This document shows positions 24,445-63,765 of a stretch of 64,000 nt of DNA, piece by piece. Both the position numbers and the translations under genes were made by a program. The stretch comes from Eledone cirrhosa. Its lineage: Eukaryota. The DNA is taken from NCBI GenBank assembly GCA_964016885.1, contig OZ024741.1, positions 83,204,001-83,268,000 of the forward strand, written 5' to 3'. The notes beneath the pieces were generated by a model. It was given only the letters and a program-made list of their open reading frames with translations, did no database searches and was not told where the DNA came from. How positions within the stretch are numbered: position 1 is the stretch's first letter; the number at the start of each line of letters is the position of its first letter.

Positions 24445-27146
24445 GTGATAATATATCGTTACGTTAGAGATAAACAGCGTACGTGCAGGTTTGCTCAACG
24501 AGTATAAATTATATTCCGGAGAAAATGTAGAAAGGATGAATATAAAATGAAAGTGCTTTTTTTAAAAAGGAATTTATTAGGTATTCACATATGTTTCTGT
24601 AACAGACCTATGTACCTATGTATCGCTGCTTGCGTAATCATATAATGTTAGCAAGTATTCGATAGCAAATGTATAATCAGTTGTCACTTCTTCAGAGATT
24701 TTGGATAAATTGGATAAAATCAGAAAAATTGAAGTATTTATATTAGTAATAGAGGAAGAAAAAGAGGGGATAGTATATGACAGATGGTAAATCAATTTAC
24801 TACTAAACAAGTATATAATGGGTTTCTAATGACAATACCATGAGTAAATGGTTCATTTTATCTAAATAAGAATTTTTGGGAGTGCCAATTTTAATCACTA
24901 CTTGACCAATTGGACAGTGGACAGGGCTGATCATTTGGTGTAGTAGTATTAATTATAAAGTGTCAATTGGGGAAGGGGGAGATTTCGATTGCTACTGAAT
25001 AACATCAATGCTAGTAGCCAGCTGGTATATGCATTAGGGAATTGAATTAAGAAATCAGAAATCTCATTCTATCTATAGCAGTTTATATTAAAAGGTAAAT
25101 AATAGAAGAGTTGATAGAATTAAGACTAATAAAGAATGTTAATATCTATTATGACAATCAAACGGAGATAGAGACAGGCGTTCAATCCTGGTAGTATTTA
25201 TAATATGAAAATGTAGATTTTAAGCGATGGTTACAGTATAACGATCGCTCTATTCTGTTATTTAATAAAATGTTTTTGGATTTCATAATACAAAATAATT
25301 CTACATTTCATAATTTACAAAATTCCTGTCCATGGGATTAGGGGGGGGGGGGGGGGGGGGCAGCGCTATTATATCCCATTTTAGGTGAAATTTTGGTTAT
25401 TTTCACGCAGCTGCCAAGCCTTGTCTGCGAGTGTTGTTACATAACGCTGGTTTTCATGTTTTATCGAGTAACGATGTCTATAAAGGCGTGATTTGAAGGA
25501 GGTGGCTGTAGATCCCACATAGTACCACTTCTGTCTATCCGATTCGATAGTACATTTGTATACGATGTTGCGTTCAAGACATGGATTGTTCAACGGACAC
25601 ATTCCTGGTTGGACACAGTTGCAATTATAATTTTGCGTTGTTGTATTGTCATGGATGCGTTGATGAGGTTGCTTATGTAGGACAGGATGTTGTTTGTTGT
25701 TTTGTGATGTTATAGCTAATGTTTTACGTGTATTGTTATGTGTTGGAAGGCGTTTATACAACCGTTTTGCGTTAAGCTTTTTTATATGTTGTTCAATATT
25801 AGGGGCGGTTGAATATGAAAGTCGAATAGTGTTAGGGTTTAAGATTTTATTATATTTATGTGATGTTGGAAAGTGTTTTTTAACTAATCGAAAGAATTGT
25901 GAGGGTAGATTGGTTTTAATAGAGTTGTTATAGACGGGGTTGTACCAAATATACTCTTTACATCGCCTTCTGTTTGGTGGTGTGCGACTATTATTGTGTC
26001 TATTGCGGTAGTGTATGTATGGTGGTGATTCTGTGCTATTTCTACTCTTATGGGATTTATTTTGGGTGTTTGGGTGGTCTTCTACTATATACTCTATATT
26101 ATCTAGGTGACCGGCTTTCCTAAGTGCATCATCATAATATTCGGCATGTTCTTTGAAGGTTTGTTGGTTGGACGACAGGCGGGAGATTCTAAGAGAAACA
26201 TTTCTAGGGATGGATTTAATTATAGAGAGTGGATGGTTAGAACTCGTATTTACATATTTAAGGTTCTCATTTAGTTTATGGAACGGTTTAATCGTATCTG
26301 TATTGAGATTCAAAGTAACATCAAGGAAATTGACCTCTTTGAGGTTATATTCAAATGTAATATTTAATCCTAGTTCCTTATAAAGAAAGCTTTCTGATAT
26401 TTTTACGCATCCTTTCTAAATTCTGGTTATTCATATGCTTAACTAATAGGAGCGCATCGTCACGGTAGATTCCACCGTGGAGATCCTTGAATTTTCCTTG
26501 TAGTCTGTGGGTGATATAAATTCCTAAAAGATCTGTTACTTCCGCCGAATCATTAGAACCCATAGTGATATCAAAATTAGAAGGTCGATCTTTGTGAACC
26601 CAGTAGCTATCATCGAATTTAACTATAGTTTTCCTCGCTTCCATAATAATTTTAATTTCAGCATCCGTAAGGTCGGAATTATCCTTAGCGAACGAAAGAG
26701 CTTCATGTAGAGTATCAGGTGAAATTGAGGAATAATATTCATCAATATCAAACTGAATAAATTTTGATTTTTTTCTTATCGGTAATGTTATTAAACCATC
26801 TTATTGCTTCATGAGTGTTACCTCATAGTTTAATTTCTACTTTAACCTTAACTTGGGGGATAATTCTGTCTAGTATATATTTGCTAATTTTGCCTATATC
26901 AGATTTAGAGGGGCATATAAGTCTAATCTTAGGGTTAGTATCGAAGTTTACCTTGTGGCCCTTCAGGTTGAAGGATGGTATAGCTGGTGTTAAGGGTTGC
27001 GTTCTATCGTCAATACAAAGTTTTTTAACAATTTCACATGCCGAGTTGTTGATGTTTTTAAGTGTAGCTTCATTAGTTTTCCTGTGTCAATACCTAATAA
27101 ATTCCTTTTTAAAAAAAGCACTTTCATTTTATATTCATCCTTTCTA
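24445..27146 (-). mobile_element. Naiad-type PLE, 5'-truncated and frameshifted, with short 5' inverted arm
   Basis: FIQFDIDEYYSSI, FDITMGSNDSAEVTDLLG, GIYRDDAL; CNC..CPL..C..VYKC..YVG..FKSRLYRH (GIY-YIG) in 25381-26313; 27087-27146 is the inverted copy of 24528-24587. Confidence 0.85.
24570..24712 (-). ncRNA. Degenerate type I HHR in the Naiad 3' region
   Basis: CTGAAGA, stem II gtgaca/tgttac, GAAAC-ATAT-GT (palindromic loop 3); cleavage base and stem I imperfect. Confidence 0.5.
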
Positions 27147-27172
27147 TATATATATATATATATATATATATA

Positions 27173-29268
27173 TAACGAAGGAAATGTGGTAAGGAACCAG
27201 GTAGACCATAACGCACCAAAGTACTCAATACTTAGGGTAGTAGAGTGGGTAATAGGAAAGAGTAGGACATCGACGGCTGAGCTCAAGCCGTTTCGACGGC
27301 TAATTCTGGACTAAATGAAAATTGTTATCCTGGTATATGAATAGCCGACCTTCTCAGTGGGTAATTCCATAAATGGTAAAACTGATTGTCACAAGGATTG
27401 GTCAAAAGTTTGTTGTTGAGACACATAGTTCTATCATGGCAATTTGTGGGAGGAAGGGTTAGCTGAACCTGCCAGTAGAAGAAAGAGGGAGAGGGAGTGG
27501 AGGAAACTCAGTCGTGCGTTGATAGTGCCAACTACAGCAGGGCAAGAGGTCAAGCAAGTATACTAGGGAGGTGGAGGGGGAGGAAGTCGAAACAATAAGT
27601 AAATCAATATGGAGTAAATATATAGAAGAATACCAAGAATGTTAAAAATATAAAAAAAACAATTTCTGGTTACTATTCCATAACGACAGTCATCAAGTCT
27701 CTCACTGGTACTGCTAAACTATAGAAAAGTTTACTAGGTGGGACGGAATTGTAAAGAGACCATTTTAAGAGTTAGTAGTAAACGACCGAGTATATCTTAC
27801 GGTGACAGGTCAACAAGTGGGGGCCAAAATACTAATGAAACTACCACGAAATAATAATTCAGAGGCCCGAAACTAATACGAAATAATTGCCTCCACCCTA
27901 GGCACCATGCCGGCAACCAGCCAGTGCAAAAAATAAACTAATACGAAATAATAATTCAGAATCCCGAAAATGAATACTAATACTATCTCTAAGGGTGCCG
28001 CTACGATACAAAAATTCTAGTGCAAACTACATAAATTCTCGTACGAGGTTTATGAAAAATTTGAGGCTGTAACACCCCACTTGCCGACTTTGTAATGGGT
28101 AACCCCTGCTTGCAAAGGTAGACGTAAGATCTTCTTTCATACCTTTTTATCGTTTCCTCTATATTTCCTTCTTCCCCCAATCCCTTCCTAGTCCTTCCTC
28201 CCCAGTCCTCCTTCTTTGTCGTCGTCCTTTTCATTTTCTCGCCCACCCGAGGTAGCCCCTCGGTCTTTTGCAGCCTCAGTACCCCCACCCCATCTCCTAT
28301 TCTATGATAGAATTGGCCGACTCCGCTTTTTATAGCAGATGTGATAGACCCCAGATACTTCGTTTCTTATCCGATGGCTGCTCCATTTCCGTGCTTTCTA
28401 CATTTATTAGTGGTATCTCTGCTTTAATTTCTCGTATATCAGTATTTTTTTTTTCTGAATTAATTTTCCGTATCAAATTTTTCATATACCTCGTACGAGA
28501 ACTTATGTAGTTTGCACTAGAATTTTGTATCGTAGCGGCACCCTTAGAGTAAGTATTAGTATTCATTTTCGGGATTCTGAATTATTATTTCGTATTTGTT
28601 TATTGTTTGCACTGGGTGGTTGCTGGCCTTGTGCCTAGGGTGGAGGCAATTATTTCGTATTAGTTTCGGGACTCTGAATTAATATTTCGTGGCAGTTTCT
28701 TTAGTATTTTGGCCCTCCACTTGTTGACCTGTCACCGTAAGATATACTCAGTCGATTACTACTAACTCTTAAAATGGTCTCTTTACAATTCCGTCCCACC
28801 TAGTAAACTTGTTTATAGTTTAGCAGTACCAGTGAGACACTTGATGACTGTCGTTAGGGAATAGTTACCAGCAATTTTTTTTTATATTTTTAACATTCTT
28901 GGTATTCTTCTATATATTTACTCCATATTGATTTACTTATTGTTTCGACTTCTTCCCCCACCCTAGTATACTTGCTTGACCTCCTTCCCTCCTGTAGTTG
29001 GTACTATCAACGCACGACTGGGTTTCCGCCACCCCTCTTTCTTCTACTGGCAGGTTCAGCTACCCCTTCCTCCCACAAATTGCCATGATAGAACTATGTG
29101 TATCAACAACAAAATTTTGACTAATCCTTGTGACAATCACTTTTACCATATATGGAATTACCACCTGAGAAGGTCGGCTATTCGTATACCAGGATAAAAA
29201 CGTTCACTTAGTCCAGAATTAGCCGTCGATACGGCTTGAGCTCAGCCGTCGGGATCCTACTCGTTCCT
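27173..29268 (-). mobile_element. Non-coding fold-back PLE-like element A
   Basis: Tail 27173-27250; inverted arms 27251-28064 and 28473-29268; (TA)n flanks; HHR-like motif at about 27265-27365 (-) and 29160-29256 (+). Confidence 0.8.
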
Positions 29269-63030: not shown

Positions 63031-63133
63031 AGTATCTATCTATCTATCTATCTATCTATATAACTCTCTCTCTCTCTCTCTCTCTCTCTCTCTCTATATA
63101 TATATATATATATATATATATATATATACATGG

Positions 63134-63765
63134 ATGAATACAATAAATGTAATCTGAGGTTTTCGAATATTAATAATAACATTCGATTCGTTTGCAATTA
63201 TGCAAACAAGCCTCAATTTTATAGTCATGTCAGTAGAATGACATGGCTATGAAATTGAGGCTTGTCTGCATAATTGCAAACGAATCGAATGTTATTATTA
63301 ATATTCAAAAAACTCTGATTACATTTATTGTACTCAGCAATGTAGAGCGTAATTTTCTTTTCTATTTGAATTTGGCAAAGCCGGCCATTATCGCTCGTAT
63401 GCAGGAAACTGACTGGCCAGTCTGCTGATATGCAAATCTGGCTGATCAGTGGATCTGCTAGTATGCAGATCTGTCTGATCAGCCAGTCTGCTAATATGCA
63501 AATGAGGCCGATCAGTCACTGTGTATTTTTATAAATAGCATATATTTTCACAAGCTCTGACAGTTTGGCAGGTGAACAGTGAGCTGTACTGATGAAGGGT
63601 GATACCCAGAAATATTAGTGTCTTCAGTTCTGTTTGAATGCCAACAAAAGAGCAAGAATGAAGTGTTCATTCTACTGACATGACTATACAATTGAGGCTT
63701 GCATCCATAATTATAAACTAATCGACTGTTATTATTAATAATCGAAAAACTCATATTACATTTAT
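63134..63765 (+). mobile_element. Retrozyme-like fold-back element (about 437 bp monomer)
   Basis: Hairpin 63134-63337 with ~100 bp arms; tail directly repeated at 63239 and 63676; HHR; (TA)n flanks. Confidence 0.75.
63575..63634 (+). ncRNA. Type I HHR
   Basis: gagctgta-CTGATGA-a-gggt(gat)accc-a-GAAA-tattagtg-TC-ttcagttc; distal pairing aacag/ctgtt. Confidence 0.7.

What the first reader, a model, noticed from the sequence alone, without database searches (positions are those of the whole stretch)
24445..63765. Set of unrelated non-coding, hammerhead-bearing fold-back elements in (TA)n tracts, next to plausible autonomous PLE partners
Seen: at least seven families with no evident shared body sequence (A 27173, B 29377, C 36045, D 36483, G 55735, 57440, 63134; fragments J 43903 and K about 44675) sit in or beside (TA)n tracts and show no recognisable coding domain. 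Most contain a type I HHR near the 3' end, and the complete ones carry an inverted terminal duplication. The coding Naiad (24445) and Neptune (37457) copies show the same architecture. Established: PLE pseudo-LTRs carry minimal type I HHRs, can be inverted, and animal non-LTR retrozymes are proposed to be PLE-mobilised. Inference: a diverse ribozyme-containing non-autonomous retroelement system mobilised by PLE RT/GIY-YIG. I do not know of a description of it in this form.
Basis: partly seen in the sequence, partly recalled or inferred. Interest (0 to 1): 0.85.

Follow-up and report, generated by a model that had tools for sequence, protein, structure and literature searches.

The report
Penelope stumps plus hitchhiking ribozyme repeats
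Five of the nine 'non-coding' fold-back elements (and likely a sixth) are cut-off tail ends of protein-coding Penelope-type jumping genes, while three are short protein-free repeats with a predicted self-cutting RNA whose insertion ends show the Penelope pattern, and two of these share a small RNA stem with the coding elements that likely marks where copying starts.

Summary
The fold-backs, (TA)n flanks and hammerhead-like motifs are real, but the set is mixed. In copies elsewhere in the genome, A, B, C, G and K run 5' into RT + C-terminal GIY-YIG ORFs, and J likely does too. They are 5'-truncated Hydra-clade PLEs with 0.6-4.5 kb 3' UTRs. The 'Naiad' at 24445 is also Hydra. D (543 bp), H (547 bp) and I (438 bp) are true ORF-less head-to-tail monomers with CUGAUGA hammerheads, i.e. 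non-LTR-retrozyme-like. Every family has two fixed 3' ends, matching the two internal RT starts known for PLEs. An RCUC...GAGY stem begins within 10 nt after 20 of 21 such ends in the Hydra, D-lineage and H families (background 5-14%). It is absent at all 4 ends of I and Neptune. D and H are therefore likely moved by Hydra enzymes; I's helper is unknown. Retrozymes, the PLE link and the two-start rule are published. My 8 literature searches found no account of the shared stem. Earlier notes of this scan report the same stem and similar retrozymes on other DNA of this genome. No RNA or cleavage data were available.

The parts
24421..27143 (-). 5'-truncated, frameshifted Hydra-clade PLE (RT then GIY-YIG; pieces 26826-27086, 26381-26800, 25384-26415), inverted arm 27085-27143, hammerhead-like core 24582-24695
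27175..29266 (-). A: 3' UTR stump of an autonomous Hydra family (unit about 3.6 kb in L282), inverted arm, about 80-nt tail, variant hammerhead 27271-27357
29377..35336 (-). B: 3' UTR stump of a young Hydra family (tandem unit 7.05-7.11 kb, uninterrupted 830-aa frame in L273/L274, about 4.5 kb 3' UTR); hammerhead with 115-nt stem II at 29573-29708 and 35144-35279
36047..36309 (-). C: short fold-back stump of a Hydra family (ORF about 2.1 kb upstream in L295/L296); canonical hammerhead 36198-36230
36483..37433 (-). D: non-autonomous 543-bp monomer (37010-36485) preceded by its own 3' end (37099-37011) and an inverted partial copy (37100-37433); hammerheads 36734-36802 (-) and 37196-37264 (+)
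37457..42830 (-). Young Neptune-type PLE, 956-aa frame 38657-41527 (RVT_1 + GIY-YIG, DKG, CX4CxxC), inverted arm, 33-nt tail; no hammerhead and no RCUC stem found
43904..44400 (-). J: 3' stump with hammerhead 43996-44035; one Hydra ORF family lies upstream in the same sense in three loci (likely autonomous)
44640..44865 (-). K: last about 225 bp of a Hydra family whose ORF ends about 0.6 kb upstream in other copies
55735..57330 (-). G: 3' UTR stump of a Hydra family; the inverted arm starts in the last codons of the ORF; hammerhead 55848-55889
57440..58130 (+). H: non-autonomous 547-bp monomer (from 57576) after its own 3' end and an inverted partial copy; decayed hammerhead 57780-57856; R1 stem 58044-58076
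63127..63765 (+). I: non-autonomous 438-bp monomer (63327-63765) after its own 3' end and an inverted partial copy; canonical hammerhead 63589-63623

Best explanation
The set is a pile-up of insertions likely made by Penelope-type reverse transcriptases in TA repeats: five families (likely six) are truncated copies of coding Hydra-clade elements, and D, H and I are protein-free hammerhead monomers that these enzymes likely copy in trans. Steps. (1) The GIY-YIG domain nicks AT-rich DNA (established for PLEs; the (TA)n preference is shown here). (2) The RT starts inside the RNA at one of two fixed sites (shown in vitro for another PLE; two fixed 3' ends are shown here for every family). One site mostly gives the tailed arm and the other the inverted arm, which yields a fold-back with a one-sided tail (inferred). 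(3) Copying often stops early. With 3' UTRs of 0.6-4.5 kb, the stumps look non-coding (shown). (4) D, H and I copies run past their own start into the previous unit, so the template is a concatemer or a circle (read-through shown; which of the two is inferred, about even odds). (5) An RCUC...GAGY stem just 3' of each start site is shared by Hydra elements, D and H and likely positions the RT, which points to Hydra as their helper (inferred, about 0.65). I lacks the stem and its helper is unknown. Ribozyme activity is predicted, not tested.
For: ORF continuity in independent loci: A L008/L015/L020/L282; G L123/125/133/142/144/145 (31); B L271-274 (40, 41); C L288/291/292/295/296 (40, 41); K L242/256/257 (42). 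Monomers: the main copy crosses its own junction in D 30 of 44, I 29 of 58 and H 19 of 54 unique loci, and has an adjacent inverted copy in 24, 39 and 19. No PLE ORF or other sequence is shared upstream except a SINE-like insert in 4 I and 3 H loci. In sets picked by the 3' part only, 15, 3 and 3 of 30 cross the junction. Longest D copy is 1270 nt. Two end clusters per family. Stem: 5' half at 21 of 21 and both halves at 20 of 21 ends, against 0.14 (templates) or 0.05 (window) at random positions. A-U replaces G-C in A, B and J. The family at 63823, examined after the motif was defined, also has it, and so does a published Hydra consensus end. The I monomer folds at z -4.4. Frangieh 2024 shows two internal starts and a need for downstream RNA.
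Against: The motif was defined on these sequences and widened to GCCC/TCTC. D-lineage R1 stems carry a mismatch, A's R2 has no GAGY partner, and B's R2 partner is 110 nt away. D/D2/D3 are related, so D and H give only 4 independent non-autonomous ends. No sequence homology links D, H or I to any of 8 autonomous families. Only the top 30-60 of 500-5300 candidates per family were read, so a coding parent could be missed. A D copy folds only at z -1.9. Most D/H/I insertions hold under two units. No A-to-G excess on the sense strand. 5' ends do not pile sharply at the ribozyme cut. J's link to an ORF is interrupted by simple repeats and inserts.
Confidence: 0.8

Rival explanations
1. All nine families are non-coding, non-autonomous ribozyme elements.
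For: No ORF in the window copies of A, B, C, J and K; hammerhead-like motifs and a shared architecture.
Against: A, B, C, G and K are collinear at 88-98% identity with the 3' UTRs of ORF-bearing copies.
Confidence: 0.03
2. D, H and I are moved by a PLE, but the RCUC...GAGY stem is a promoter or DNA-level endonuclease signal, or a relic of descent from Hydra pseudo-LTRs, and does not name the present helper.
For: At R2 the stem is the first sequence of the 5' UTR. The text of Frangieh 2024 notes that the Drosophila tail DNA was needed for endonuclease recognition. A very young Neptune family without the stem also targets (TA)n.
Against: The stem follows both end sites at a similar distance and keeps pairing through A-U/G-C swaps. 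D and H end spacing (88, about 115 nt) falls in the Hydra range (71-166), not Neptune's 33-41.
Confidence: 0.3
3. D, H and I are satellite-like DNA repeats or MITE-type fold-backs spread at the DNA level, with a passenger hammerhead.
For: Inverted arms flanked by TA resemble TA-duplicating DNA transposons. No RNA evidence was available.
Against: The arms are unequal with a one-sided tail, 3' ends are fixed while 5' ends scatter, many copies have no inverted arm, and the architecture matches the coding PLEs.
Confidence: 0.05

Closest known systems
Hydra clade of C-terminal EN+ PLEs (Craig et al. 2021, PMC8557442; Hydra-1_Obim)
   Same: DKT, RW(K/R), CxCx5C linker, WFNPP region, (TA)n target, hammerhead near the 3' end, inverted truncated copy plus tail.
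   Different: Units here are 3.6-7.1 kb rather than under 3 kb because of long 3' UTRs. Tails are 70-166 nt rather than 30-40. There are at least six divergent families, each with 1600-5300 first-look candidates.
Metazoan non-LTR retrozymes (Cervera and de la Pena 2020, PMC7229834; Li et al. 2026, 10.64898/2026.07.22.740005)
   Same: ORF-less head-to-tail units, type I hammerhead, GC below 50%, co-occurrence with PLEs; I is 438 bp and strongly self-paired.
   Different: D and H are about 545 bp with long stem II inserts and mostly 1-1.6 units per site. They carry the PLE insertion signature and a stem shared with Hydra. The word 'inverted' has 0 hits in the 2020 main text. The preprint's evidence is co-occurrence and pLTR homology.
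Poseidon PAc of Anolis (Frangieh et al. 2024, PMC11167929)
   Same: Two internal RT start sites define the tail; AT-rich target; RNA 3' of the start is required.
   Different: Different clade. The start lies in an AC-rich stem-loop, no conserved RCUC...GAGY stem is described in the text read, and no non-autonomous template was tested.
Putatively non-autonomous Chlamys elements such as MRC1 (PMC8557442)
   Same: Non-coding PLE passengers with pLTRs and head-to-tail copies.
   Different: They are algal and usually homologous to the helper's 3' end. D, H and I show no such homology to the 8 families compared.

Membership tests
Hydra PLE (A, B, C, G, K, 24445, J) | Single ORF, RT with C-terminal GIY-YIG | tested here: met
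   B 830-aa frame, C 748 aa, G 591 aa; order of pieces at 24445. Pfam is weak: GIY-YIG E 0.0025 for C only, 1 of 4.
Hydra PLE (A, B, C, G, K, 24445, J) | DKG changed to DKT; RWK motif | tested here: met
   DKT in A, B, C, G, K, 24445; RWK in K, RWR in A, B, C, G; neither seen in the truncated J-linked piece.
Hydra PLE (A, B, C, G, K, 24445, J) | CxCx5C linker | tested here: met
   B, C, G, 24445 and J-linked ORF; K; not recovered in A's L282 copy.
Hydra PLE (A, B, C, G, K, 24445, J) | Loss of the CCHH motif in the endonuclease | tested here: inconclusive
   No alignment made; B has cysteines between the IVY and YIG motifs.
Hydra PLE (A, B, C, G, K, 24445, J) | Placement in the Hydra clade on an RT tree | not tested
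   Reference proteins were seen only as supplement text.
Naiad (24445 element) | N-terminal endonuclease, DKA motif | tested here: not met
   Endonuclease is C-terminal and the family has DKT.
Neptune (37457 element) | C-terminal GIY-YIG, DKG, CX2-5CxxC linker | tested here: met
   Nematis was not excluded by a tree.
Non-LTR retrozyme (D, H, I) | No protein-coding frame; GC below 50% | tested here: met
   Longest stop-free frames 107, 58 and 92 aa; GC 0.41, 0.32, 0.39.
Non-LTR retrozyme (D, H, I) | Type I hammerhead in each unit | tested here: met
   Consensus core kept in 25, 19 and 25 of 30 copies; 0 of 200 shuffles score as well. H has GAAU and D lacks G10.1-C11.1.
Non-LTR retrozyme (D, H, I) | Tandem units of about 150-450 bp, two or more complete units | tested here: inconclusive
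   Head-to-tail junctions are common, but only one D locus holds over two units. D and H exceed 450 bp; the preprint reports 51-972 bp.
Non-LTR retrozyme (D, H, I) | Self-cleavage and accumulation as circular RNA | not testable with these tools
   Needs bench work or RNA reads.

The most novel reading that the evidence does not exclude
Hydra-clade telomerase-like RTs pick their two start sites by binding a small RCUC...UUGAGY stem just downstream of each site. Old protein-free RNA lineages (D/D2/D3, H, the 612-bp family) have survived as circles that keep only these two stems and a hammerhead. The stem is then a portable 'copy me' tag that names the helper of an animal retrozyme, while I is a second parasite class served by another PLE clade.
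Probability: 0.45. Interest if true: 0.7.

Novelty: new variant of a known kind. Interest (0 to 1): 0.5.

Why it matters
Which enzyme moves animal retrozymes, and how PLE reverse transcriptases choose an internal start, are open questions in the papers read. Here non-coding monomers carry the PLE end signature and a sequence-structure tag shared with one clade that has young, uninterrupted ORFs in the same genome. That gives a ready helper-template pair and point mutants to test. The case is also a caution for annotation: long PLE 3' UTRs make truncated copies look like novel non-coding or MITE families.

Tried and rejected
Rfam scan: 1 hammerhead hit below cut-off among 137 matches, mostly microRNA models on simple repeats. 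Strict scanners missed most motifs; one search ended in an error at H. Partner search by homology among 8 autonomous families: nothing. D-like relatives D2 and D3 were followed as possible coding parents and proved to be monomers too. 5' ends at the ribozyme cut: I 6 of 29 (2.0 expected), H 8 of 25 (3.2), D 1 of 28 (1.6), duplicates collapsed by hand. A control for I starting 41 nt further 3' gave a broad hump (11 of 35 loci end at 282-318, one at the cut), which RT stalling at a helix explains equally well. The H control was not analysed. RNA-editing test: no A-to-G excess. The G core count failed. The alignment was mis-ranged and not used. The homologue search returned 118 proteins, 117 unnamed. 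MITE reading rejected. Repbase and Dfam were not available, so 'not curated' is untested; the preprint's supplements could not be seen.
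Full report
Setting. The window lies in a 3.0-Gb animal genome, likely a cephalopod (my inference from repeat content and earlier notes; not tested). Self-comparison confirms the reported fold-backs, each with one arm longer at its outer end. I searched the genome with each element and read the top 30 loci per search. 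These are the best-scoring of 500-5284 first-look candidates, not a census.

Five families are stumps of coding elements. A has the same 3' end in 30 of 30 loci, and L008, L015 and L020 continue 5' into a GIY-YIG frame. L282 holds a tandem unit of about 3.6 kb. G continues into an ORF in at least six loci. B occurs as 7.05-7.11 kb tandem units with an uninterrupted 830-aa frame, and the window copy matches the 4.5-kb 3' UTR at 96%. C shares 3.1-4.6 kb including ORF sequence among L288, L291, L292, L295 and L296. K's ORF ends about 0.6 kb upstream. For J, one ORF family lies upstream in sense in L276, L278 and L470, with simple repeats and inserts between, so the link is likely, not shown. DKT, RW(K/R) and CxCx5C match the Hydra definition (PMC8557442 section 11) and its supplementary alignment. 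The 24445 element has the same motifs and a C-terminal endonuclease, so it is not a Naiad. The 37457 element has DKG and CX4CxxC and a Pfam GIY-YIG hit.

Three families are closed monomers. D, H and I consensus units are 543, 547 and 438 bp. Upstream of a full unit lies the element's own 3' end. The main copy crosses its own junction in 30 of 44, 19 of 54 and 29 of 58 unique loci, half of which were selected for full length. An inverted partial copy is adjacent in 24, 19 and 39. After masking, no locus pair shares upstream sequence except a SINE-like insert. The PLE ORF hits within 700 nt (3 D loci, 1 I locus, 0 H loci) are not shared between loci. D has two sister monomer families at 70-73% identity, so this non-coding lineage is old. 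A fourth monomer family of 612 bp begins at 63823.

Ribozymes. Consensus parses with a full core and stems I and II were found for B, C, D, D2, I and J. A and H have variant cores, and the 24445 and D3 parses are doubtful. None was found for the G and K consensuses or for Neptune. G's tailed window arm parses. K's family core is the U3-A8 type in 27 of 29 copies, a variant reported in PMC4209133. D2 keeps stem I through a two-sided change relative to D. Activity is untested.

Mechanism. Every family has two clusters of 3' ends followed by TA or TAA runs: for example D 35 and 15 ends 88 nt apart, A 56 and 35, G 43 and 29, Neptune 19 and 16, I 35 and 34 ends 37 nt apart. Frangieh et al. showed in vitro that a PLE RT starts at two internal sites, that the tail is the sequence between them, that RNA 3' of the start is needed and that the hammerhead is dispensable for insertion. 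D, H and I thus bear a PLE-specific footprint. Within 10 nt after each end lies RCTC (or GCCC/TCTC), pairing with GAGY 8-110 nt further on. The 5' half is present at 21 of 21 and both halves at 20 of 21 ends in Hydra, D-lineage and H families, and at 0 of 4 in I and Neptune. Random positions give 0.14 or 0.05. The motif was defined on these same sequences. Two later checks agree: the 612-bp family and the end of the consensus record preceding Hydra-1_Obim in the supplement, whose name was not shown. At R2 the stem lies in the next unit, so only tandem or circular RNA presents it, which fits read-through copies up to 1270 nt. Circle versus concatemer cannot be told from DNA.

Against. There is no sequence homology to a helper, D folds weakly (z -1.9; I -4.4), the editing test showed no sense A-to-G excess, and 5' ends form only a broad hump near I's ribozyme.

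Literature seen. 10.64898/2026.07.22.740005 parts 1-3 of 5. PMC8557442 passages, outline, sections 3 and 11 and supplement searches. PMC4209133 parts 1-2 of 4. PMC11167929 parts 1-3 of 4. Passages only of PMC7761336, PMC3846280 and PMC7229834. Together these describe inverted truncated copies, tails, TA targeting, PLE hammerheads, retrozymes and their proposed PLE origin, non-autonomous Chlamys, and trans-mobilisation through pLTR sequences. In eight searches and these readings I found no description of the shared stem or of retrozyme-type monomers with the two-site footprint. Subscription journals, Repbase and Dfam were not searchable. Earlier notes of this scan, read after I had found the stem, report both features on other DNA of this genome. 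They are unchecked AI notes and not independent support.

Verdict. Observation partly confirmed. Two thirds of the set is ordinary truncated PLE. One third is a retrozyme variant with a testable link to a named helper clade. Interest 0.5.

Noticed in passing
window 63823-64000 (-), continuing in L520/L525; relative at 23947-24112: Another ORF-free-looking tandem family, 612-bp period, CUGAUAA hammerhead variant, GCTC...GAGT right after its end site.
   Followed up: partly
window 44859-44995: K's 3' end joins unrelated DNA right at its ribozyme, creating a chimeric hammerhead-like core; the upstream piece recurs at 45524-45626 (79%).
   Followed up: partly
window 13626-13763, 35586-35688, 49268-49352, 52852-52931, 55639-55694: Tail-only copies of A, C, D, G and B between TA runs.
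   Followed up: partly
loci of D, A, G, K, H: Sense-strand T-to-C changes exceed A-to-G (D 153 vs 42, A 35 vs 5, G 42 vs 9). RT misreading of U, antisense editing or shared ancestry could each explain it.
   Followed up: partly
L065, L069, L070, L089, L095, L098, L112: A SINE-like repeat sits repeatedly at the same ATTATT/TAATAA sites of I and H.
   Followed up: no
window 58185-58482: Further fold-back next to H; relatives at about 76% identity, 2525 candidates.
   Followed up: partly
window 58570-60800: 36-bp tandem array of about 60 copies with open 763- and 740-codon repetitive frames.
   Followed up: no
window 37457-42830: The Neptune family is very young (40 of 40 scored hits about 100% identical). 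An older relative lies at 17436-18659 (76-78%).
   Followed up: partly
window 35746-35873 and 24268-24392; 52512-52572, 53163-53395, 53775-54013: Older TA-flanked families with few close relatives.
   Followed up: partly
window 55387-55560: 174-bp near-perfect palindrome (96.6%).
   Followed up: no
window 735-2120, 7186-8139, 10370-12898: LINE-type RT remnants (Pfam RVT_1).
   Followed up: no
L473: J-containing 1.07-kb tandem array that includes the TA flank, likely a DNA-level duplication.
   Followed up: partly
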